Of a stretch of 10,100 bases of DNA, positions 1-10,098 are shown one piece after another. Under the pieces are notes generated by a model. That model had not been told where the DNA came from and did no database searches. It saw nothing but the letters and a program-made list of their open reading frames with translations. A program made the translations under genes and the position numbers. The stretch is taken from positions 1-10,100 of the forward strand of contig JBDKUT010000075.1 of the NCBI GenBank assembly GCA_039679545.1. Direction: 5' to 3'. Each line of letters starts with the position of its first letter. The stretch's first letter is position 1. This DNA is from Thermotogota bacterium (GTDB lineage: Bacteria > Bipolaricaulota > Bipolaricaulia > UBA7950 > UBA9294).

Positions 1-549
1 GAAGATACGGCCGACGACGAGGCTGAAGCGATCTTCCAGACAAACAGCATGGGCGTGTTGCGCGTCTGCTGCGCTGTGCTCCCGATCATGCGAGAGCAGG
101 GGACGGGGAGGATCGTCGTCGTCTCATCGATCGCCGGGCGGGTCGCCGTGCCGTTCCAGGGGCTCTACAGTGCGACGAAGTTCGCGGTCGAGGGGCTGTG
201 CGAAGCTCTTCGAATGGAGGTCAAGCGGTTCGGCATTCACGTGACCCTGGTCGAGCCCGGAGACTTTCACACGGGATTCACAGATCGGCGACTTCGCGTC
301 CGCGCCTCGAGGGAGAACGGAGCGTACAGCGAGGCGTGTCGGAGAGCCCTTGAGATTGCGGAGTCCGACGAACGCCGAGCGTCCACCCCGGAGGGTGTGG
401 CTCGTCTTGTCTCGCGAATTCTGTCCCGGCGAGCGCCGCGCCTTCGCTACACCGTCGGCCCCGCCCTTCAGAGGGTCGCCGTACGACTGAAAAGCGTCTT
501 ACCATCCCAAGTGTTTGAATGGGCTCTCGGACTCTACTACCGCGCCTAG
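1..549 (+). CDS. Classical short-chain dehydrogenase/reductase (SDR), 5'-truncated; candidate 3-ketodihydrosphingosine reductase
   Basis: Frame is open from base 1 (EDTADDEAEAIFQTNSMG...), so the ATG at 49 is internal. SDR catalytic elements: helix Asn (FQTN), GRIVVVSS (Ser), YSATK (YxxxK), then VTLVEPG. The TGxxxGIG cofactor motif lies outside the window. Stop TAG 547-549. Substrate is inferred from context only. Confidence 0.92.
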   Translation, partial: EDTADDEAEAIFQTNSMGVLRVCCAVLPIMREQGTGRIVVVSSIAGRVAVPFQGLYSATKFAVEGLCEALRMEVKRFGIHVTLVEPGDFHTGFTDRRLRVRASRENGAYSEACRRALEIAESDERRASTPEGVARLVSRILSRRAPRLRYTVGPALQRVAVRLKSVLPSQVFEWALGLYYRA

Positions 550-589
550 CGGTTGGCGCCACTGCCCAGCGAGCCCCGAGGAGGGCGAA

Positions 590-1813
590 GTGACCGACCT
601 GTTCGAGAAGTGTCGCGCGTTTTTCACCGATCCCGCCTACGCCGAGGCCCTCGGCTATCCGGCGAGTCCCCAGCGTGCCAAGGATCTTGGCGTCTACGCG
701 TTCTTCATTCCACTTGATCAGACCGAAGGAACGGAAGTCACGATTGCCGGGAAGAGGCTCGTCATGCTCGGGTCGAACAACTACCTGGGGCTGACCATGC
801 ACCCCGACGTCCGCCGCGCCGCGCAGGAGGCCGTTCGGTCGTTCGGAACAAGCTGCACGGGCTCCCGCTTTCTGAACGGGACTCTTGCTCTGCACGGAGA
901 ACTGGAGCAGCGGCTCGCGGCCTACGTCGGAAAGGAGAAAGCTCTCGTTTTCACGACGGGATACCAAGCGAACCTCGGCGCGCTGTCCTCACTCGTCGGG
1001 CACGGAGACATCGTGATCTGCGACAAAGAAGATCATGCCAGCATTGTCGACGGATGCCGGCTTTCGCTCGGGAGGATGGTCCGCTTCCGTCACAACGATT
1101 TCGCGGACCTTGATCGCGTTCTCGGGAAGTGTCCGAACGGTGCCGGTCGGCTCGTCGTCGTCGATGGTGTGTTCAGCATGGGGGGTGACATTGCGCTTCT
1201 CCCGGATCTCGTGCGTGTTTGTCGGACTCACGGAGCGCGGTTGATGGTCGACGATGCGCACGGGATCGGTGTTGTCGGAAGAGGGCGGGGAACCTCGGCG
1301 CACTACGGGGTCACGCAGGCGGTGGATCTCATCGTGGGAACGTTCAGCAAGTCGCTCGCCTCGATCGGAGGATTCGTCGCGGGGGACGAGTCGACGATCC
1401 ACTGGATTCAGCACGCGGCGCGCTCGCTGATGTTCAGCGCCAGTCTCCCCGCACCCAACGTCGCGGCTGCTCTGGCGGCGCTTGACGTGATGGAGCGTGA
1501 GCCGGAACGAATCGATCGGGTGAACCGAATCGCCGATCGAATGCGAGACGCCTACCGCGATCTCGGGTTCGACGTCGGCGAGAGTCAAACGCCTATCGTC
1601 CCCATCTTCGTAGGTGACTCCCTCAGAGCGATGCAGGTATGGCGGTCCCTGTTCGACGCCGGCATCTACGTGAATGTGGCGATTCCGCCGGCAGTCCCTC
1701 CGGGCAAGGCCCTGTTGCGGACGAGCTACATGGCCACGCACACCGACGAGCAAATGGAGCGCGTTCTCAACGCTTTCGCGTCGGTCGGGAAGATCCACGG
1801 GCTGATTCCGTAG
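590..1813 (+). CDS. spt: PLP-dependent alpha-oxoamine synthase, serine palmitoyltransferase-like (407 aa)
   Basis: GTG at 590 preceded by GAGGAGG (578-584); the track start at 515 overlaps the SDR and is unlikely. Motifs: GSNNYLGL, GTSCTGSRFLNGT, DHASIVDG, DGVFSM, VDDAHG, GTFSKS (PLP lysine), FSASLP, LLRTSYMATH. GSRFLNGT and GTFSKS match bacterial SPTs as I recall them better than BioF (TFGKA/TLSKA) or Kbl (SVRFICGT, TLGKA). Family is near-certain; serine/acyl specificity is inferred. Confidence 0.8.
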   Translation: MTDLFEKCRAFFTDPAYAEALGYPASPQRAKDLGVYAFFIPLDQTEGTEVTIAGKRLVMLGSNNYLGLTMHPDVRRAAQEAVRSFGTSCTGSRFLNGTLALHGELEQRLAAYVGKEKALVFTTGYQANLGALSSLVGHGDIVICDKEDHASIVDGCRLSLGRMVRFRHNDFADLDRVLGKCPNGAGRLVVVDGVFSMGGDIALLPDLVRVCRTHGARLMVDDAHGIGVVGRGRGTSAHYGVTQAVDLIVGTFSKSLASIGGFVAGDESTIHWIQHAARSLMFSASLPAPNVAAALAALDVMEREPERIDRVNRIADRMRDAYRDLGFDVGESQTPIVPIFVGDSLRAMQVWRSLFDAGIYVNVAIPPAVPPGKALLRTSYMATHTDEQMERVLNAFASVGKIHGLIP

Positions 1814-1828: not shown

Positions 1829-2563
1829 CTAGTTCTCGGACGGCGGTCTTGGGGCGATTGTCGGCGGCATCTGTCCCCGTCGCAGACGTCGTGCCGTGTA
1901 GAGGACCCATCCAACCGAGCCGACGAGAACGACGCACGCAACCGCGGGAAAGACGACGCTCCCGGCCTTGGGGGTTGACTCCTCGGCCGCGAGGGCCGTC
2001 GCGATCAGCGAGAAGTCGTAGACTCCGTGAAGGAGGACGGCGGCGCACAGACCCCACAACGCGGGGCCACGCCTTGCTGGTGCTGTACAGGCGAGGGCGG
2101 CGCTGTAGCCGAGAATCGCACCGGTGGCCGCGTTCATGGGGACCGCGGTGACGGCCCGGAGGGTGGCGGTCGCCCATCCTCCCTGGACCACGTAGAGGGC
2201 GTTTTCCAGGGCTCCGAATCCCAACGCGGCGGTGATCCCGTAGATGAAGCCGTCCGTTTCGTCTCGAAAGCTGGTCCGCCGCGCGCTGTACCCGCGAATG
2301 ACGAGAAACTTGAGGAATTCCTCCGGAACGGCCGTGACTGCGAAGGCGGCGATCCCCGCAGCGAGCCAAGGAGAATGGAACGACATCCAGGAGGCGAGAA
2401 GCACGACGGCCATGGCTGGGAGTGCTGCGGCAAGGCCGAGCAGGAACGTGCCGATGAGGATGTTCAGCGATTTGCGCCGTGCCTCGCGGCGGACGAAACA
2501 CCCCACCAAGACTAGAATCGGGAAGGCCGTCAGCGTGCTGGCGAGAAGCAGCCTTCCCCTCAC
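1829..2563 (-). CDS. PrsW-family glutamic-type intramembrane protease (244 aa)
   Basis: GTG start with GGAGG 5 nt upstream. Multiple hydrophobic helices. Motifs PEEFLKF (EExxK), DGFIYG...LGFGALEN (FxxxE), LLHGVYD (HxxxD). The usual third-motif His reads Asn (AVPMNAA). Confidence 0.9.
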   Translation of the reverse strand: MRGRLLLASTLTAFPILVLVGCFVRREARRKSLNILIGTFLLGLAAALPAMAVVLLASWMSFHSPWLAAGIAAFAVTAVPEEFLKFLVIRGYSARRTSFRDETDGFIYGITAALGFGALENALYVVQGGWATATLRAVTAVPMNAATGAILGYSAALACTAPARRGPALWGLCAAVLLHGVYDFSLIATALAAEESTPKAGSVVFPAVACVVLVGSVGWVLYTARRLRRGQMPPTIAPRPPSEN

Positions 2564-2640: not shown

Positions 2641-3627
2641 CTATGTTACATCATCCGGGAGGTAGATAGCGAACTTGCACCAAGGATCGCCGTTCAACAC
2701 CGTCTCGATGACCTCAGCTCGCAAGGGCTTTCCGAAGATCACGTCGTACGGCTTCTTGTGAAACGCGGCGCTGCAGTTGCAGAACGTCGCAGGGACTTGC
2801 GTCTCTCCGTTGCGTAGCGACTCGCGTGCCCACGGGCAGTGGCAGTAGAGGTAGGCTTTTTTCTTGGGATCCGCTTCCGCGAGGAACTCGACGGCCATGT
2901 ACGGGATCTTCGCCTCGTAGATCACGTTGCCGATGCGAAGGCCCTGTCGGATCTCCGGGTGAGCCTGCACAAAGGCGATGACCTCGTTCGTAATTGGCTG
3001 GTTAAAGTAGAGGCCCTTCTTGTCGCGGATCTTCTCAAGCTCCGCGATGAACGCGTCACCCTTCTGCGCGAGATAGGCGTCGATTCCTCCAGCAGCTTCG
3101 TAGTTGCTCTTCTCCCCGGCGAACCCCTCGTCGGGCAGGTCGCGCAGTCCGGTTCCGAGGATCTCGGCGCACCGCTTGGGTCCGACACGCTTCTCCAACC
3201 GCTCGACAGCGACGCGCATGGCGCGATGCTTCTCGGTGTTTGGGGTGCCCAGGGGAGGTAAGGCGATCCCGCGGAAGATCCGATCCCGCTCGTCGGTCCC
3301 GAGTTCGCCGGAAAGCTTCGTGAACAGATTTCCAAGGGCTTCGTGACCGTCGATGTACTCGAGGGCCGTGGCGAAGACCTGGTAGTTGCCGGCGAATCGC
3401 CCGCCTCGCGCGATGGTCAAGTACGTCTCCCACGTGTTGGCGTCCTCTTCGATGAGGACCGCCGAGAACGCGTTGACGTCCTTCCTCGTAGCGGACGAAA
3501 GATCGTGTGGAGGCTTTCGCGTCCGGAGGAACGTCTCGAAGCGTTCCACGACCGCGATGGACTCCTCCATTTGCTTCTCGGTGAGCTTGCGTTCGAGCAG
3601 GTAACGGCGGAACCCCTCCCGATCCAT
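2641..3627 (-). CDS. Cys-rich DUF6144/V4R-like protein with a helical N-terminal extension (328 aa)
   Basis: ATG at 3627 (MDREGFRRYL) with AAGGAGG at 3640-3634; the track start at 3774 overlaps the divergent gene. C-terminal YCHCP...TFCNCS...IFGKPLRAEVIETVLNGDPWCKFAI is the pattern I associate with DUF6144/V4R-like domains. Confidence 0.75.
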   Translation of the reverse strand: MDREGFRRYLLERKLTEKQMEESIAVVERFETFLRTRKPPHDLSSATRKDVNAFSAVLIEEDANTWETYLTIARGGRFAGNYQVFATALEYIDGHEALGNLFTKLSGELGTDERDRIFRGIALPPLGTPNTEKHRAMRVAVERLEKRVGPKRCAEILGTGLRDLPDEGFAGEKSNYEAAGGIDAYLAQKGDAFIAELEKIRDKKGLYFNQPITNEVIAFVQAHPEIRQGLRIGNVIYEAKIPYMAVEFLAEADPKKKAYLYCHCPWARESLRNGETQVPATFCNCSAAFHKKPYDVIFGKPLRAEVIETVLNGDPWCKFAIYLPDDVT

Positions 3628-3697
3628 CTGTGCCCTCCTTCGACATGCCGGGGCGAGTTTTTTGTGGAGCACTACGCGTCCGTTCATATACCTTCGT

Positions 3698-3763: not shown

Positions 3764-4486
3764 ATGTGCCGCATGCTCGTTGCTCCGCTCGGACTGCCAG
3801 GTCACGCTGTCCTCGAGCCGTTTCGGGCGATGGCCCGCGGGGAGAACCTCGCAAGGAGGCACGGCAACACATGGAACCATCCCCACGGTTGGGGAATCGT
3901 CTACCAGGATGACGGCCGGCTTCGCTGCTATCGAAGCGCGCGCCCGTGCTGGGATGACCCAGACTTCGACGCGTTCAAGAAGGCCCGTGTCTTTCTGCTT
4001 CACGCGCGGCGCAAGACAAACGGCGACGTTTCGAGTGAAAACTCGCACCCGTTCTCCCTTGAAGTCGACGGAAGGACGTGGTTCTTCTGTCACAACGGAA
4101 CGGTTCACGATCCGCTTCCACCTCTTCACGAACGTGCTGGCGCGGATTCAACCGATTCGTACCGGCTCTTCTGCAAGCTTGCCGCGGAAGGACTCGGTGG
4201 AAATCCCGGCGCCGCGCTTCGCTCGGTCTACGGACAACTTCGCGACTTCACGTCGCTGAACACGTTCCTCTTCGAGGAACAAGAGTTGTGGGCGGTCTGT
4301 CGGTGGACAAAGGACGAGGCGTACTACACTCTCCATCTTGCGGAGTCGGAGGCCGGCCCGCTCGTCTCATCGGAGCCGCTCGACGGAGTCGACGTGGCGT
4401 GGACTGCCTTAACCAACGGGTCCGTGTTGCGAATCGATCGACGAACCGGCGCGATCGGCCGGCAGGCCCTTTCGGGGTCTTCCTAG
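3764..4486 (+). CDS. Stand-alone class II glutamine amidotransferase (Ntn hydrolase; YafJ/EgtC/Dug3-like) (240 aa)
   Basis: Begins M-C-R-M, giving the N-terminal nucleophile Cys after Met removal, which fixes the start at 3764. Motifs HPHGWG, LLHARR, ENSHPF, FCHNGTV, STDS, LVSSEPL. Confidence 0.92.
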   Translation: MCRMLVAPLGLPGHAVLEPFRAMARGENLARRHGNTWNHPHGWGIVYQDDGRLRCYRSARPCWDDPDFDAFKKARVFLLHARRKTNGDVSSENSHPFSLEVDGRTWFFCHNGTVHDPLPPLHERAGADSTDSYRLFCKLAAEGLGGNPGAALRSVYGQLRDFTSLNTFLFEEQELWAVCRWTKDEAYYTLHLAESEAGPLVSSEPLDGVDVAWTALTNGSVLRIDRRTGAIGRQALSGSS

Positions 4487-4493
4487 GAGGAAT

Positions 4494-5270
4494 GTGGCGC
4501 GCAAGGAACAGGACGAGCCGGCCCTTCCCTACGTGCCCCGAACCTACCGGCGCGACGAATCGGCGCCCTTCGTCCTTTGGACGTCTCCGTGTGAGACGGG
4601 CGAGCACCGCGCATGCCTTCGCTCGTGGGCCTTCGACGCAATGTCCTTCCTATCCGAGGCCCTTGGATTCCGGCCGTCCCGGCGTCTCCACGTCGTCTCG
4701 TTTCGAACGAACGAGGAGGCGCGACTCTCTCTGGGGCGGGAGGTTCCATCGGCGATGGCCCTCGCACCGTACGCGGGAGAGGCTGACTGCTTGGTGGTCG
4801 TTCAGTCGGCGAGCGTTGATTCACGGAACGCTGACCCTGACCGCATGAGAGGAATCCTCGTGCACGAGATGGCCCACCAACTCATCGCAGAGCGGACTGG
4901 GTCGACGAAGCTGTTGGGGGATGGAAATCGATGTGTGAACGTTTCGACGTGGCTGAATGAAGGACTTGCGGAGCTGCTCCGGTTTCAGTTCCTGCACGAC
5001 GCAGCGAGGATCGAGGGCGCTCTCGGCGAGTTCGAGAGGGCGCGAGACATCCTGACCTGGCGGGACGTCGATGGGCTTCTGGATGATCTCGACGCCGACC
5101 GTCGCGCCGAGGCGTTCGTTCGGGCAACCGGGGCCGTGGCGTGGCTCGCTCGCGAAGCCGGAGTCGTAATGCTGTTCGATCGGCTCGCTGTCGTGGATCA
5201 CGCGGTGGCTCCTAACAGCGGCTGTGCGGTGCCGGCTCTCCGACCTGTCCTTCGTCGTCTCTCCGCGTAG
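4494..5270 (+). CDS. Putative gluzincin (clan MA-like) zinc metallopeptidase, probably cytoplasmic (258 aa)
   Basis: LVHEMAHQ (HExxH) followed by WLNEGLAE (third zinc ligand motif). AGGAGG at 4485-4490 overlaps the upstream stop, suggesting translational coupling. No signal peptide seen. Exact start uncertain because the SD spacing is only 3 nt. Confidence 0.75.
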   Translation: MARKEQDEPALPYVPRTYRRDESAPFVLWTSPCETGEHRACLRSWAFDAMSFLSEALGFRPSRRLHVVSFRTNEEARLSLGREVPSAMALAPYAGEADCLVVVQSASVDSRNADPDRMRGILVHEMAHQLIAERTGSTKLLGDGNRCVNVSTWLNEGLAELLRFQFLHDAARIEGALGEFERARDILTWRDVDGLLDDLDADRRAEAFVRATGAVAWLAREAGVVMLFDRLAVVDHAVAPNSGCAVPALRPVLRRLSA

Positions 5271-5349: not shown

Positions 5350-5775
5350 ATGGGTCCGCAGTGGTTCGCTCTCCTGACAGCGGCGGCGTGGGGCATCGGC
5401 GGGTACTTCGAGAAGAAAGGGCTGGCCATCGGAGGCGTGCCCCCGCAGATCGGCATTGTCGTTCGTACGGGGATCGCCTTTCTCCTTCTCGCGGCAGTCA
5501 GCGCGCCACAGTGGCGAACCCTGACGACCGCAAGCCCGAAGTCCCTTCTGTACATTGCCATTGGTGGGGGCGTCCTGGCAGGAGCTGTCGGGATGCTGTG
5601 CTTCTACGTTGCCCTTCGGAACGGATCGCTCGCTCAGGTCATGCCGATCGCCTTTACGTCGCCCCTGTTCGGCGTTCTGCTCGGGATGATCCTTGGCGGC
5701 GAACCCGTTACGGCGCGCGCGATCGGGGGCATGGCGCTCACGGTCGGAGGCATCGCGCTTCTCTCGGTTCGCTAG
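5350..5775 (+). CDS. Single-domain EamA/DMT-family small membrane transporter (141 aa)
   Basis: ATG at 5350 after AAAGGAG. About five hydrophobic helices. ALLTAAAWG, FYVALRNG...VMPIAFTSPLF and GEPVT...IGG are typical EamA motifs. Confidence 0.9.
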   Translation: MGPQWFALLTAAAWGIGGYFEKKGLAIGGVPPQIGIVVRTGIAFLLLAAVSAPQWRTLTTASPKSLLYIAIGGGVLAGAVGMLCFYVALRNGSLAQVMPIAFTSPLFGVLLGMILGGEPVTARAIGGMALTVGGIALLSVR

Positions 5776-5867: not shown

Positions 5868-8800
5868 CTATCGATTCACGAACACGATGCCTTTTGCGGA
5901 GTCGGTGTTGCTCGGGTCGAAGGTGTTCGTCCCGTCCGTTGCCGCAAGGACGTAGATGTAGGCGCCGTTCGCAAGCGCATTGCCATCCTCGTTCACCCCG
6001 GTCCAGATGACTTCCGAGACATTCGCTTCGGTCTTTGCCCACACCGGGTGCCCGGCGAGGTCGTAGATTTCGACGGAGAACGTCGTCGCAATGCCCGAAC
6101 CGTCGTACGCGAAAGCGACTTCGTCGTTGAACGGGTTCGGCCCGGCGTAGAACGACGTGACTTCAAGCTCGCCCGATACGATGACCACCGTGGCCGAACT
6201 CGTATCGGTCGGATCCGTCGGGTCGACGTACGTTGCGGTGATCTCCTCGCCGACGGCTCCGTCGAGCACGATCGGATCCGTGACGAACATGTGGCTCTGG
6301 CTTCCGTACGTCGTGAGGTCGTAGGTGGCGCCGCCAATTGTGACCGCGCCGGACAGAGAGACATCCTGCGTGTGTGAGAGGTCGGTTATCCTCACACGAA
6401 GTGGATCTCCCTGCACGTACGAGTCGACGACGTTGCCCTGGGTGTCGATGAATTCGGTGCATGAGGCCTCGGTCGCCGTGCCGTTGCCACCGATCGAGAC
6501 CTTGATTGAGAGGACGGCCGAGTCGGAGTGGTTCGACGGATCCTGGTAGAAGGCGACGATCGTGTCGCCGGGCAAAACGCCGAGGGTTGGCACACACGTG
6601 TAGACGTCAACGAGGTCGACGCAGATGACGGATATGAAGACTCCGCTTGCCACGTTCGTCTCGAGCAGGTCAAGGGCCGCCCAACGTCCGCTGCGCGGGT
6701 TGAGGACGTAGATCCTCGGCGCGCCGTCGTTCGTGTCGCCCGCGTACGGATTCGGCGAGTTGTTGAAGATGTTCGTGTCGCCGAGCAGCGCGTTGACCGG
6801 GTGCAAGTTGACCCGGTCCGGAGTGCAGTCGAACGCGTTCAGCGGCAGCGGGCCGAACGGGATGTTCTGACCTTCGTCCCAGAAGCCGTCGATTCGCTCG
6901 CGACGGTACAGGTCCTCGTCCTGGTCGTCATCGATGACCTCGAGGAAGACGCAGTCCGAGTTCACGTAGTCCTCGACCTCGTTGCCGTTCCGATCGAGGA
7001 AATGCATCCTCGTCGTCGACCCGTCGTAGACCTGGGTATCGGCGATGGACATCAGATCGTACGAGACGTCGTTCGAGACACGGACTTTGTCGATTCGCGG
7101 GCCCGAGTACGCCGTGTACGTGCTCTCGTCGCCGAGCCCGAACATCCCTTGGTTGTTGTCCACGTAGTCCACGTCGTTGTAGCGAACATAGACGTCGTCC
7201 TCGTTGTACGCTTCGAGTTTCCAGTTGTCGAGGACGAGTTGATAGCCGCCGAGAAGGCCGGCGAGACCGACGCCGAGGGCATCCCACACGGGAAGGAGTT
7301 CCATTCCCGCGTTCGAGAAGAAGATGGACGAGTTCGACGACGTCTCATCGAGGGCCCAGAACTCCCCGTCGTCCTCGTCGTGCGGATTGCAGATGTGGAC
7401 AACGATCTGCTCAGGGCAGCACGCCTCGACGTTGGCGTTCTCGTCGATGACTTGAACGTAGACCGCGTCGCGACCGAGCCAGTACTCGCTCTTCTCCATG
7501 CGGGTCGCGTCAGTGAAGTTCGTTTGCGAAGTCTTGGCCTTCGAGCCGATGTACGCCACGGCCAGCTTGAAGTCATCTTCGTCGTTCGGGTCGAGGTAGT
7601 AGGCAACGAGCGTGTCGTTCCCATTCAGGCTGTTGAATCCGAGGTCGGCGAGGATCGAGTTGAGCTTGAGCTCGAAAATTCCCGTGTCCACGCCCGTTTC
7701 GCGAGCGTAGAACGAAATGGCCGTCACGCCGTTCGCACTCACCGTGTCGAACAGCGATCCGTGGTCCTCAAGGTCGAACACCCCAAGCTTCGGGTAGTGA
7801 ATGTAGTAGCGACCGTCTTTCGCTCCAGTCGTTCCGTAGTCGTTTTTCTCCGCGTTGTAGATGTTGAACCAGCGGATCGGCCGGTTGGTGTCGTCCACAG
7901 CCGGCGGCACGGGCGTTGCCGGCAGCGCCGGGTCTTGCGGGGTCAGGTAGTTGCCAGCGATGCCTCCCGTGCGCTTGAGCATGCAAAAGTTCGTCGCGTT
8001 GTTGCCGGTTTGCTTCTCGTCATCGTCGGGTGAGTTGGCCGGGTTCCACGACCCGGGGTTCACGATGATGAACACCGGCACGTACTCGACGCGGTTGCAG
8101 TTTAGGTTCTCATCGGCGTCGACGACGCGGATCGTTGCGGCCTCGTTTCCGTCCTTGTAGATGACGGTGTCGCCCCGCGAGCTCGTGGAGTCCCATGCGA
8201 TCGTTGCCTCCGTGTCGATGATCTTCATCATCGCGACCGCGACGTCGGTTTCCTCGTTTGGGTCCTGAACCATGCCGATCAGCGTATCCATGTTCTCGAA
8301 CCGGCCGATCAGCCACTCGGTTGGGGAGGTGGTGCGGTTCGAGTTCAGCTCGGACGGGAGAGCCCACTTCCAGGAATCCAGAGCGATGAGCCCTGTCTCG
8401 AACCCCGTTGAGTTGCCGGGGAGGTTGCCGACCCAGTAGAGTACGTCGCCGTCCGCGTTGTTTCCGCCCTTCGTCTCGTTGTGAACGTCCAGGAACGAGT
8501 AGTTGCCCCACTGGAACGACGTGCCCATGGTGGCGGAGGTCTTCGCGGCGAGGGGAGCGGCCCCTGCGGGTACGTCAACGACGTGCGTCCCCTTCCACAG
8601 CTCGCTCGCCCCGAAGCTCTCCCTGGTGCCGATCTGGAACGGGTGACTGCTCACGAAGACGCTCGTGTTGGCGCCGGTCTCCTCCAGGTAGTCCCCGTCG
8701 AGCCATCCCGGATTCCCGGGGTAGTGTCCCTTGTACGGAACGTAGCCGTCCTCGTCGTACCTCTTGCCGGCCGGGCTCCCCGTCTCGTTGACGTAGCTTA

Positions 8801-9053
8801 TCCACATGATGTAGGCGCCTGTCTTTGGGTCCATCAGCTTGACGTCGGTCCAGAACTTGTCTCGGACGTCGCAGTCGATGTTCTCGTCCGGATCGTAGAC
8901 GCAGATCCAGACCTCCGCTCCTTCCTGAACGTTCGTGACGCGGGTTCCGCCGTCTTGATCGGACGAGAAGTACATCTCGGCCGTGCTCGCGGCGAGCGGA
9001 AGAACCGCCAAGGTCACGACAACCCAAGCCAGCACTAACCCTCTACGCACCAT
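5868..9053 (-). CDS. Large secreted acidic repeat protein (1061 aa), S-layer/surface-protein-like, with C-terminal FlgD-Ig/T9SS-CTD-like domain
   Basis: ATG at 9053 after GAAGGAAGGGG. Sec-type signal peptide MVRRGLVLAWVVVTLAVLPLAASTA. Asp/Asn/Thr-rich with recurring V.D.D.N, L.ET...sgvF and Y.DP....D motifs. The last ~100 aa read GPNPFN...VEIYDLAGHPV...WTGVNEDGNALANGAYIY...KGIVFVNR. Confidence 0.85.
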   Translation of the reverse strand: MVRRGLVLAWVVVTLAVLPLAASTAEMYFSSDQDGGTRVTNVQEGAEVWICVYDPDENIDCDVRDKFWTDVKLMDPKTGAYIMWISYVNETGSPAGKRYDEDGYVPYKGHYPGNPGWLDGDYLEETGANTSVFVSSHPFQIGTRESFGASELWKGTHVVDVPAGAAPLAAKTSATMGTSFQWGNYSFLDVHNETKGGNNADGDVLYWVGNLPGNSTGFETGLIALDSWKWALPSELNSNRTTSPTEWLIGRFENMDTLIGMVQDPNEETDVAVAMMKIIDTEATIAWDSTSSRGDTVIYKDGNEAATIRVVDADENLNCNRVEYVPVFIIVNPGSWNPANSPDDDEKQTGNNATNFCMLKRTGGIAGNYLTPQDPALPATPVPPAVDDTNRPIRWFNIYNAEKNDYGTTGAKDGRYYIHYPKLGVFDLEDHGSLFDTVSANGVTAISFYARETGVDTGIFELKLNSILADLGFNSLNGNDTLVAYYLDPNDEDDFKLAVAYIGSKAKTSQTNFTDATRMEKSEYWLGRDAVYVQVIDENANVEACCPEQIVVHICNPHDEDDGEFWALDETSSNSSIFFSNAGMELLPVWDALGVGLAGLLGGYQLVLDNWKLEAYNEDDVYVRYNDVDYVDNNQGMFGLGDESTYTAYSGPRIDKVRVSNDVSYDLMSIADTQVYDGSTTRMHFLDRNGNEVEDYVNSDCVFLEVIDDDQDEDLYRRERIDGFWDEGQNIPFGPLPLNAFDCTPDRVNLHPVNALLGDTNIFNNSPNPYAGDTNDGAPRIYVLNPRSGRWAALDLLETNVASGVFISVICVDLVDVYTCVPTLGVLPGDTIVAFYQDPSNHSDSAVLSIKVSIGGNGTATEASCTEFIDTQGNVVDSYVQGDPLRVRITDLSHTQDVSLSGAVTIGGATYDLTTYGSQSHMFVTDPIVLDGAVGEEITATYVDPTDPTDTSSATVVIVSGELEVTSFYAGPNPFNDEVAFAYDGSGIATTFSVEIYDLAGHPVWAKTEANVSEVIWTGVNEDGNALANGAYIYVLAATDGTNTFDPSNTDSAKGIVFVNR
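6180..8980 (-). repeat. About five degenerate protein-level repeats (probably Ig-like beta-sandwiches) in the surface protein
   Basis: Approximate units: R1 8980-8215 (VYDPDEN / LEETGANTSVF / VQDPNEETD), R2 8210-7550 (VVDADEN / RETGVDTGIF / YLDPNDEDD), R3 7535-7040 (VIDENAN / LDETSSNSSIF / VRYND), R4 7020-6490 (VIDDDQD / LLETNVASGVF / YQDPSNHSD), R5 6465-6180 (ITDLSH / YVDPTDPTD). Not evident as DNA repeats. Confidence 0.7.
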
Positions 9054-9126
9054 GGCTTGCCCCTTCCTTCTCACGCAGACGTACCTCGACGCGGAATCCC
9101 CTTGCGCCGAACGTTGGACTGTCACC

Positions 9127-9249: not shown

Positions 9250-10098
9250 CTAGCGCGGAGGGCTGAAACGGATGACGACGATGTCTCCGTCTTGGATCTT
9301 GTAATCGCGCCCCTCGAGGCGGCGCTTGCCAGCTTTGGCCGCCGCGGCCTCGGATCCACACTCGATCAGATCTTCGTACGCGATGACTTCCATGCGGATG
9401 AACCCACGCTCCATGTCGGTGTGGATCTTCCCCGCCGCGGCGGGGGCTTTGTCGCCGCGCCGGCACGTCCACACGTGGACCTCCTTCTCGCCCGCCGTGA
9501 AGAAGTCCACGAGTCCAAGCTTGCGATAAGCGGCGCGGATCAGCCGGTCGATCGACAACTCGGCGACGCCGAGCTCGGCAAGGAAGGGGCCTCGGTCTTC
9601 CGGCGGGAGTTCACTGATGTCGGCCTCTTCGCGCCCACAGATGGAAATGACTTCGCTTCCCTCCGCTGACGCCCGCTCGCGGAGGGCGGCTGCGCCGGGT
9701 CCGTCTGCGTCTCGCGGGAAGAGGAGGTTGGCCACGTAGAGAACGGGCTTTTGTGACATGAGGTTGCAGTCCGCGACGCTTGCCTGCTCGACCTCGGTCA
9801 GCCCCTGGTTTCGCGCGGGGATGCCCGCGTGAAGGTCTCGGAGCACCTTCTCGCAGTCTTCGGATTCGCGAACCGCAAACTTGTCTCCGATTCGGACCCG
9901 CTTGACGAGTCGTGCGATCTTCCGCTCGACGGTCTGCGCGTCGGCCACCATCAGCTCGAGGTCGACCGTCTCGACGTCGTGGAGCGGACTCGGCGGGTGT
10001 TCAGGAGCCGCGAAGCAACGGACGACGTGGATCAGAGCGTCCGCCTCCTTGATGTGGGTGAGAAGGCGCGACCCGCGTCCTCCTTCCGCGGTCGATCC
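9250..10098 (-). CDS. ychF: Redox-regulated ATPase YchF (Obg family), 5'-truncated
   Basis: Frame is open to the window edge: GSTAEGGRGSRLLTHIKEADALIHVVRCF...VDLELMVAD, then KPVLYVAN and the TGS-like C-terminus FFTAGEKEVHVWT...APAAAGKIHTDMERGFIRMEV...RLEGRDYKIQDGD. Confidence 0.95.
   Translation of the reverse strand, partial: GSTAEGGRGSRLLTHIKEADALIHVVRCFAAPEHPPSPLHDVETVDLELMVADAQTVERKIARLVKRVRIGDKFAVRESEDCEKVLRDLHAGIPARNQGLTEVEQASVADCNLMSQKPVLYVANLLFPRDADGPGAAALRERASAEGSEVISICGREEADISELPPEDRGPFLAELGVAELSIDRLIRAAYRKLGLVDFFTAGEKEVHVWTCRRGDKAPAAAGKIHTDMERGFIRMEVIAYEDLIECGSEAAAAKAGKRRLEGRDYKIQDGDIVVIRFSPPR

What the first reader, a model, noticed from the sequence alone, without database searches (positions are those of the whole stretch)
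1..1813. SDR plus SPT-like gene pair: candidate sphingolipid pathway in an unexpected lineage
Seen: the two genes are co-directional, 40 nt apart, with a strong SD and no terminator between. Established: SPT makes 3-ketodihydrosphingosine, which eukaryotes reduce with the SDR KDSR/Tsc10, whereas the described Caulobacter route acylates first (bCerS) and then reduces (CerR). The segment YSATKFAVEGLCEALRMEVK resembles KDSR as I recall it, though it is shared with other 17beta-HSD-like SDRs. Inference: a reduce-first sphinganine pathway, or a related aminolipid pathway, in a taxon not known for sphingolipids.
Basis: partly seen in the sequence, partly recalled or inferred. Interest (0 to 1): 0.7.

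Follow-up and report, generated by a model that had tools for sequence, protein, structure and literature searches.

The report
Sphingolipid starter gene pair in Bipolaricaulota
An uncultured Bipolaricaulota bacterium carries two neighbouring genes that likely make sphinganine, the backbone of sphingolipids, using a Bacteroides-like reductase in place of the usual bacterial ceramide reductase, which suggests ceramide-type membrane lipids in a group where no such lipid has been measured.

Summary
In detail: a 5'-cut SDR (1-549; the contig starts here), a 40-nt gap with GAGGAGG, then a 407-aa synthase (590-1813). The genome is Bipolaricaulota. The synthase falls in the serine palmitoyltransferase (SPT) clade, away from BioF and Kbl, and keeps 18 of 21 checked S. 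multivorum SPT active-site residues. The SDR's best model is bacterial KdsR (Bacteroides BT_0972 family), not eukaryotic KDSR. Both score under NCBIfam cut-offs. In 61 genomes, 22 carry the KdsR-like SDR, all directly upstream of SPT; two same-genus relatives lack both genes with the flanks joined. In other phyla a CerR-type extended SDR fills this slot; this genome has no gene of that clade but has a bCerS-like acyltransferase elsewhere. Best reading: SPT, then KdsR-like reduction to sphinganine, then acylation to dihydroceramide (0.6; a sphingoid base by either order about 0.8). Reduce-first in bacteria is already described for Bacteroides, where KdsR is not clustered with SPT. The operon link, the apparent CerR replacement and the phylum are not in the papers I could search. 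Nothing was assayed. This scan noted the same pair before on other DNA (another Bipolaricaulota genome, Clostridia, Mollicutes, a spirochaete).

The parts
1..549 (+). Classical SDR, KdsR-like (predicted 3-ketosphinganine reductase); the 5' third is cut off by the contig start
   Evidence: Best NCBIfam model NF049977 KdsR, 194 bits on profile positions 90-267, next best 143; full-length orthologs score 271-336 against a cut-off of 400
166..180 (+). SDR catalytic YxxxK (YSATK)
   Evidence: Read; Y and K invariant in alignments A1 and A2
578..584 (+). Shine-Dalgarno-like GAGGAGG, 5 nt before the GTG, inside the 40-nt gap 550-589
   Evidence: similar GGAG elements in most relatives
590..1813 (+). 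SPT-clade alpha-oxoamine synthase, 407 aa (predicted serine palmitoyltransferase)
   Evidence: Best NCBIfam model SerpalmtaseCFB 502 bits, cut-off 640; bioF 379, Kbl 297-377; best PDB hit S. multivorum SPT 397 bits; tree
1337..1354 (+). GTFSKS PLP-binding motif with Lys254 (codon 1349-1351)
   Evidence: PMC10196870 calls GTFSKS the SPT-characteristic motif

Best explanation
The two genes form a conserved cassette that likely makes sphinganine: the synthase is predicted to condense serine with a fatty acyl-CoA (or acyl-ACP) to 3-ketosphinganine, the SDR is predicted to reduce it with NADPH, and a bCerS-like acyltransferase encoded elsewhere (G000:C153) would then N-acylate it to dihydroceramide. 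Shown here: gene anatomy, family placement, conserved linkage, joint gain or loss, presence of a bCerS-like gene and no CerR-clade gene found. Inferred: substrates, cofactor, the reduce-first order and the final lipid.
For: (1) Synthase: inside the SPT clade (SH-aLRT 99) with four references that pass NCBIfam SPT cut-offs, away from E. coli BioF and Kbl. It keeps 18 of 21 residues that PMC10196870 names for S. multivorum SPT, including N52, S81, H138, D210, H213, K244, M271. Among its 80 closest named loci, 42 have a CerR-type extended SDR and 41 a bCerS-type GNAT beside it. (2) SDR: KdsR is the best model. A metagenome search with its alignment pulled true KdsR members: 10 of 39 scanned pass the cut-off. 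A tree that holds it with KdsR, apart from generic relatives, is 36.6 lnL better than the free search and not rejected (p-AU 0.92). (3) Linkage: 22 of 61 genomes have the SDR, all 22 adjacent to SPT; G002 and G004 lack both with the flanks joined; 29 of 80 metagenome SDR loci have an SPT-model match beside them, in several gene orders. (4) Slot exchange: an extended SDR in G049 and G058 and a Tsc10-like SDR in one Anaerolineales genome take the same place. (5) bCerS-like gene in G000 (322 bits) and in 23 of 25 SPT genomes, one of them as a contig-end fragment; none of G000's three extended SDRs falls in the CerR-type clade. (6) For reduce-first: BT_0972 reduces free 3-ketosphinganine (PMC9278070); orthologs begin with the Rossmann motif and have no room for a signal peptide; both genomes of genus g10 keep the pair with no bCerS found.
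Against: No enzyme or lipid was measured. Both proteins are under their NCBIfam cut-offs (502/640; 271-336/400). The AU test against grouping with Kbl/BioF is only borderline (p=0.046). In the free SDR tree the window's group is not sister to KdsR, and generic oxidoreductases lie nearer on weak branches; identity to KdsR is only 42-43%. The bCerS-like gene also occurs in 20 of 36 genomes without this SPT, including one single-contig genome (G047), so it may have another job. bCerS and CerR were not compared with the Caulobacter proteins themselves. G000 is 93.55% complete, so a CerR could be unassembled. SDRs of only 21-27% identity share this kind of activity (PMC11211663), so sequence is a weak guide to the exact substrate.
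Confidence: 0.6

Rival explanations
1. Same lipid, other order: the bCerS-like enzyme acylates 3-ketosphinganine first, as proposed for Caulobacter, and the SDR reduces the keto-ceramide as a cytoplasmic stand-in for CerR.
For: The SDR takes the operon slot held by CerR-type genes elsewhere; bCerS acylates the keto base in Caulobacter (PMC11087976); a bCerS-like gene is present.
Against: The closest characterised enzyme acts on the free base (PMC9278070); genus g10 keeps the pair with no bCerS found; the SDR is tied to SPT, not to bCerS.
Confidence: 0.2
2. The pair makes a related amino-alcohol lipid from another amino acid (alanine, glycine or cysteate) or another acyl donor, or stops at a free long-chain base that is not turned into ceramide.
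For: SPTs accept alanine and glycine (PMC10196870 abstract); 3 of 21 checked positions differ (Y27F, A79T, F114Y); the bCerS-like gene does not track the pair.
Against: Cysteate acyltransferase scores 249 bits against 397 for SPT; the positions matching CFAT Ala82 and Lys280 (PMC13692747) are, by my reading of the motifs, Ser92 and Ala284 here, as in SPT; the serine-contacting residues are kept.
Confidence: 0.15
3. A BioF- or Kbl-type housekeeping enzyme next to an unrelated SDR.
For: BioF and Kbl models also score high (297-379 bits); the AU test is borderline.
Against: G000 has a separate Kbl-like gene, in two pieces at contig ends, whose ortholog passes the BioF/Kbl-subfamily and Kbl cut-offs; GSRFLNG and GTFSKS match SPTs, not BioF or Kbl; the SDR link holds in 22 of 22 genomes.
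Confidence: 0.03

Closest known systems
Bacteroides thetaiotaomicron Spt (BT_0870) plus 3-ketosphinganine reductase BT_0972 (NCBIfam NF049977 KdsR; PMC9278070)
   Same: Bacteroidota-type SPT and a classical SDR of the KdsR subfamily as best models; same predicted two steps.
   Different: Here the genes are adjacent and gained or lost together; BT_0972 does not cluster with SPT, and Bacteroides also has CerR homologues (PMC10191378). Scores are under both cut-offs; 42-43% identity to over-cut-off KdsR.
Sphingobacterium multivorum SPT (PDB 3A2B, 8GUH; PMC10196870)
   Same: Best PDB match (397 bits); 18 of 21 named active-site and pocket residues identical; GTFSKS motif.
   Different: Y27F, A79T, F114Y; a 14-residue insert near the N-terminus found in the Bipolaricaulota group (seen in the alignments, not studied).
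Caulobacter-type Spt, bCerS, CerR route (Stankeviciute et al. 2022, not held; seen through PMC11087976 and PMC11334938)
   Same: SPT-clade synthase and a bCerS-type GNAT; close relatives of the synthase sit in extended-SDR, SPT, GNAT operons.
   Different: No CerR-clade gene found; a classical SDR without signal peptide holds the reductase slot; the GNAT is unlinked; no ACP beside the pair.
Eukaryotic KDSR/Tsc10 (PDB 8JAT)
   Same: Same predicted reaction and the SDR fold.
   Different: Not a close relative: absent from the listed PDB hits. A different SDR beside SPT in L052 does hit it.
Capnine route, CFAT plus 3-ketocapnine reductase (PMC11211663, PMC13692747)
   Same: Alpha-oxoamine synthase followed by an SDR keto-reduction.
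   Different: Lower score (249 against 397 bits) and SPT-type residues at two CFAT pocket positions.

Membership tests
Bacterial serine palmitoyltransferase | Falls in the clade of known SPTs, apart from BioF and Kbl | tested here: met
   SH-aLRT 99, 64-row tree; AU p=0.046 against the alternative. HemA was not in the tree.
Bacterial serine palmitoyltransferase | PLP and serine contacts and GTFSKS motif of S. multivorum SPT | tested here: met
   18 of 21 named residues identical
NCBIfam SPT equivalogs (NF047600, NF047599, NF047603) | Curated score cut-off | tested here: not met
   502/640, 422/500, 350/670; an SPT inside a Nitrospirota extended-SDR, SPT, GNAT operon also misses (598/640)
Bacterial serine palmitoyltransferase | Forms 3-ketosphinganine from serine and acyl-CoA | not testable with these tools
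   Needs an assay
KdsR equivalog NF049977 (BT_0972) | Curated cut-off 400 bits | tested here: not met
   Fragment 194; six full-length orthologs 271-336; 0 of 61 genomes over the cut-off
KdsR subfamily (BT_0972-like) | One clade with true KdsR, apart from generic relatives | tested here: inconclusive
   Not sister in the free tree; the constrained clade has higher likelihood and is not rejected, p-AU 0.92
KdsR subfamily (BT_0972-like) | Classical SDR with GxxxGxG and the S, Y, K triad | tested here: met
   the Rossmann part is read from orthologs because the window's copy is cut
KdsR subfamily (BT_0972-like) | NADPH-dependent reduction of 3-ketosphinganine | not testable with these tools
   Needs an assay
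Caulobacter-type Spt/bCerS/CerR pathway | bCerS-family GNAT in the genome | tested here: met
   G000:C153:30290-31465, 322 bits; homologues in the Roseomonas and Sphingomonas SPT clusters score 319 and 316 on the same model; not compared with the Caulobacter protein itself
Caulobacter-type Spt/bCerS/CerR pathway | CerR-clade reductase in the genome | tested here: not met
   Three G000 extended SDRs fall outside the 19-row SPT-linked clade (SH-aLRT 97); the nearest passes the HpnA cut-off; genome 93.55% complete
Eukaryote-type KDSR/Tsc10 | Closest solved relative is Tsc10 | tested here: not met
BioF / Kbl | Clade, motifs and cut-offs | tested here: not met
Cysteate fatty-acyltransferase (CFAT) | Pocket residues Ala82 and Lys280, and nearness to CFAT | tested here: not met
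   Ser92 and Ala284 by motif reading; 249 against 397 bits; no CFAT sequence was in the tree

The most novel reading that the evidence does not exclude
An SPT-KdsR operon is a widespread, CerR-free, reduce-first bacterial route to dihydroceramide, and in Bipolaricaulota (outer-membrane genes but no LpxC, plus hopanoid genes in this genome) glycosylated ceramides are envelope lipids that help stand in for LPS. The reductase slot beside SPT has been filled by at least three unrelated reductase types.
Probability: 0.3. Interest if true: 0.7.

Novelty: new variant of a known kind. Interest (0 to 1): 0.48.

Why it matters
Whether bacterial KdsR works in sphingolipid synthesis in vivo, and whether bacteria reduce before or after acylation, is stated as open (PMC11087976), because BT_0972 looks essential and is not clustered with SPT. 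A KdsR-like gene that is co-inherited with SPT in genomes without a CerR-clade gene gives context evidence and a three-gene set that can be tested in E. coli. It also means surveys that demand Spt, bCerS and CerR miss producers. It points to a deep-branching phylum without LPS as a source of environmental ceramides: diglycosyl-ceramides correlated with Acetothermia in Oman fluids but were attributed to other taxa (PMC10667739).

Tried and rejected
Upstream context in this genome: none, the contig starts at base 1; the 5' part of the SDR was not found on another contig. The HpnA-like epimerase (G000:C21) as CerR: rejected; it passes the HpnA cut-off, lies outside the CerR-type clade, similar weak hits occur in most relatives with or without SPT, and G000 has a squalene-hopene cyclase. 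The HpnB-like glycosyltransferase (G000:C15) as the ceramide head-group enzyme: not supported; close orthologs in 12 SPT genomes and 10 non-SPT genomes. KdsR replacing CerR across Chloroflexota: not supported as a rule. The KdsR model matched 10 of 32 genomes without a neighbouring extended SDR and 0 of 18 with one (50 of the 74 non-Bipolaricaulota loci were given, and large genomes had only 40 candidates scored). Of the eight of these hits placed in the tree, six fell among generic oxidoreductases, one (G078) on a long branch and one (G061) with the window's group. PDB search with the bCerS-like protein: nothing. The Prevotella F0039 record gave no over-cut-off KdsR. The 50%-cluster search added tandem double SDRs but no new context. 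The 117-row tree did not finish; one search used 64 rows. The paper that defined bCerS and CerR is not held, and the Black Sea supplement that lists 38 phyla could not be read, so Bipolaricaulota may already be listed there as Spt-like carriers. A search tying the label 'dATP pyrophosphohydrolase' to bCerS found 0 papers; that link is my recall. No structure or complex was predicted.

Full report
Observation. The window is the whole of contig G000:C75, so nothing upstream can be read. It holds a 5'-open SDR at 1-549, a 40-nt gap with GAGGAGG at 578-584, and a 407-aa synthase at 590-1813. That exact protein is on record. No terminator-like site was found in 1-2700, but shuffles give only 1.8. 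A prsW-family gene ends head-on 15 nt after the synthase.

Lineage. The closest named relatives of both proteins are labelled Bipolaricaulota or Acetothermia, as is a 91%-identical same-genus ortholog. Three close loci carry Thermotogae labels from their depositors. The genome is 2.35 Mb, 93.55% complete. It has Omp85 and an LptF/G gene but no LpxC; LpxC was found in 1 of 61 genomes (G041). This agrees with the LPS-free, possibly simple diderm envelope described for this phylum (PMC6092417, passages).

The synthase. NCBIfam ranks the Bacteroidota SPT model first (502 bits, cut-off 640), above bioF (379) and Kbl (297-377). The best PDB match is S. multivorum SPT (397 bits); cysteate acyltransferase scores 249 and Kbl 238. 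In a 64-row tree (64 of 117 collected rows; near-duplicates dropped for time) it lies in a clade of SH-aLRT 99 with four references that pass SPT cut-offs, away from E. coli BioF and Kbl. Forcing it with BioF and Kbl costs 44 lnL, p-AU 0.046, which is borderline. Mapped on the 8GUH alignment, 18 of 21 residues named in PMC10196870 (passages) are identical: N52, Y54, G80, S81, F83, L84, H138, S185, D210, A212, H213, T241, S243, K244, M271, F272, S273, A274. Y27, A79 and F114 differ. The Bipolaricaulota SDR-linked group (99) sits with Chloroflexota sequences (91), apart from the SPTs of G049, G058 and G041, which hints at transfer; no direction was tested. Among the 80 closest named loci, 42 have an extended SDR and 41 a GNAT next to the synthase. 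Homologues of both sit in the Roseomonas and Sphingomonas clusters with ACP and an over-cut-off SPT, so I read them as CerR-type and bCerS-type. I could not compare them with the Caulobacter proteins.

The SDR. Its best model is NF049977 KdsR (194 bits on the fragment; 271-336 for six full-length orthologs; cut-off 400). Tsc10 is not among its listed PDB hits. Orthologs start with the Rossmann motif within a few residues of the start and have Ser/Thr/Ala-Arg after the second strand, which I read from general SDR knowledge as cytoplasmic and NADPH-preferring. A metagenome search with its alignment returned 80 loci; of 39 scanned, 10 pass the KdsR cut-off. The free tree does not make the window's group sister to KdsR. 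A tree that holds the window's orthologs, KdsR and the other metagenome relatives together, apart from generic oxidoreductases, scores 36.6 lnL higher and is not rejected (59 of 79 rows, the window's fragment left out). So it is KdsR-like; orthology to BT_0972 is not shown.

Linkage. Of 61 genomes (G000 included), 25 have the synthase at 54% identity or more. 22 have the KdsR-like SDR (243 bits or more, or the window's fragment), each directly upstream of it. Three genomes without SPT have a weaker, generic hit (222-224 bits). In the seven genera with mixed presence the two genes are present or missing together; G024 keeps only a C-terminal SPT remnant. In same-genus G002 and G004 the 2.6-kb cassette is absent and its flanks are joined, so this is not an assembly gap. 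Kin are not independent, so I give no p-value. Outside kin, 29 of 80 metagenome SDR loci have an SPT-model match beside them, in several orders; many contigs are short and two of the matches score low. None of the 10 over-cut-off KdsR loci shows one, as reported for BT_0972 (PMC9278070; opening sections and passages). The three SPT genomes without the SDR have an extended SDR in that slot (G049, G058) or the GNAT right behind (G041); the G049 and G058 proteins fall just outside the main CerR-type clade. One Anaerolineales locus has a Tsc10-like SDR there.

Rest of the pathway. G000 has a bCerS-like gene on C153 (322 bits), found in 42 of 61 genomes: 22 of 25 with SPT, one more as a fragment, and 20 of 36 without. 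Both genomes of genus g10 have the pair and no bCerS hit even with a profile (each 90% complete). No G000 extended SDR is in the CerR-type clade. Four AMP-binding ligases are present, and a long-chain acyl-CoA ligase-like gene follows SPT in G044, G053 and G056. No head-group enzyme could be tied to the pair.

Mechanism. Most likely SPT makes 3-ketosphinganine, the SDR reduces it to sphinganine, and the bCerS-like enzyme acylates it (0.6). Acylate-first with the SDR as a CerR stand-in is the main rival (0.2); another amino-lipid or a free base 0.15; BioF or Kbl 0.03. The orphan bCerS-like genes are unexplained; scavenging of sphingoid bases or a second job are both possible.

Known and new. 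Reduce-first is described for B. thetaiotaomicron, and both routes are drawn for Bacteroidota (PMC10191378, PMC10865984; passages). PMC11087976 (passages) says the in vivo role of BT_0972 is unclear. Spt-like genes were reported in 38 phyla, some without linked bCerS or CerR (PMC11334938, passages; preprint main text has no mention of this phylum; supplement unread). Searches pairing Bipolaricaulota with sphingolipid, or Acetothermia with serine palmitoyltransferase, found 0 papers; a wider search listed 15 of 215 papers, none with the phylum name. I ran no paper search aimed at SPT-KdsR operons as such; none appeared in the papers read. Diglycosyl-ceramides correlated with Acetothermia and Meiothermus in Oman fluids, though the authors assigned ceramides to other taxa and warn that taxa co-vary (PMC10667739, passages). 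Earlier notes of this scan report the same pair in another Bipolaricaulota genome, Clostridia, Mollicutes, a syntroph and a spirochaete; these are unchecked, but my metagenome count is in line with a wide spread.

Verdict. Real, conserved and well placed: known enzyme kinds in an arrangement (operon-coupled KdsR-like reductase, no CerR-clade gene) and a phylum that I did not find in print. New variant of a known kind; interest 0.48.

Noticed in passing
L052:2129-3001 (Anaerolineales genome): The SDR directly upstream of SPT is not KdsR-like; its best single-domain PDB hit is fungal Tsc10 (8JAT, 92 bits). A third reductase type in the same slot, closer to the eukaryotic enzyme.
   Followed up: partly
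G000:C153:30290-31465 and relatives: The bCerS-like GNAT is kept at 61-70% identity in many genomes that lack this SPT, including single-contig G047, usually next to an NAD-synthetase-like gene (neighbour named by my reading). Its substrate there is unexplained.
   Followed up: partly
G000:C64:16331-17281, C21:27500-28789, C15:8655-9854: Squalene-hopene cyclase domain, HpnA and HpnB (both over cut-off): this genome likely makes hopanoids as well.
   Followed up: partly
G000:C9:1503-4766: A 1088-aa frame with a full LptF/G domain followed by about 700 more residues that look like a periplasmic bridge and outer-membrane barrel (my reading), in a genome without LpxC.
   Followed up: no
G000:C114:11366-12430: A third, divergent alpha-oxoamine synthase (GTLSK motif, Tyr after the PLP-stacking His), under all NCBIfam cut-offs, with orthologs across the family; G019 has two.
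   Followed up: partly
window 5868-9080 (-): A roughly 1070-aa likely secreted protein with a C-terminal FlgD_ig / CHU_C / T9SS-like sorting domain.
   Followed up: no
window 2641-3651 (-): A 336-aa protein with no Pfam or NCBIfam hit and a Cys-rich C-terminus (YCHCPW, FCNCS), found near SPT in 7 of the 25 loci mapped.
   Followed up: no
window 1829-2563 (-), 3770-4486 (+), 4494-5270 (+), 5350-5775 (+), 9250-10098 (-): PrsW-family protease, class II glutamine amidotransferase, an unannotated ORF with an HExxH-like motif, a single-domain EamA protein and a partial YchF.
   Followed up: no
P0123, P0124 and others: About 20 of the best 150 relatives at 50% clustering are tandem double SDRs of 480-630 aa, both halves of this subfamily.
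   Followed up: partly
L180:5998-7212 (Priestia megaterium plasmid): An SPT-clade synthase (525 bits on the Bacteroidota model) on Bacillaceae plasmids, with no reductase or GNAT annotated beside it.
   Followed up: no
G041: The only genome of 61 with LpxC; larger (3.7 Mb, 5% contamination), with an SPT-GNAT pair unlike its kin. It may be an outlier lineage or a mixed bin.
   Followed up: no
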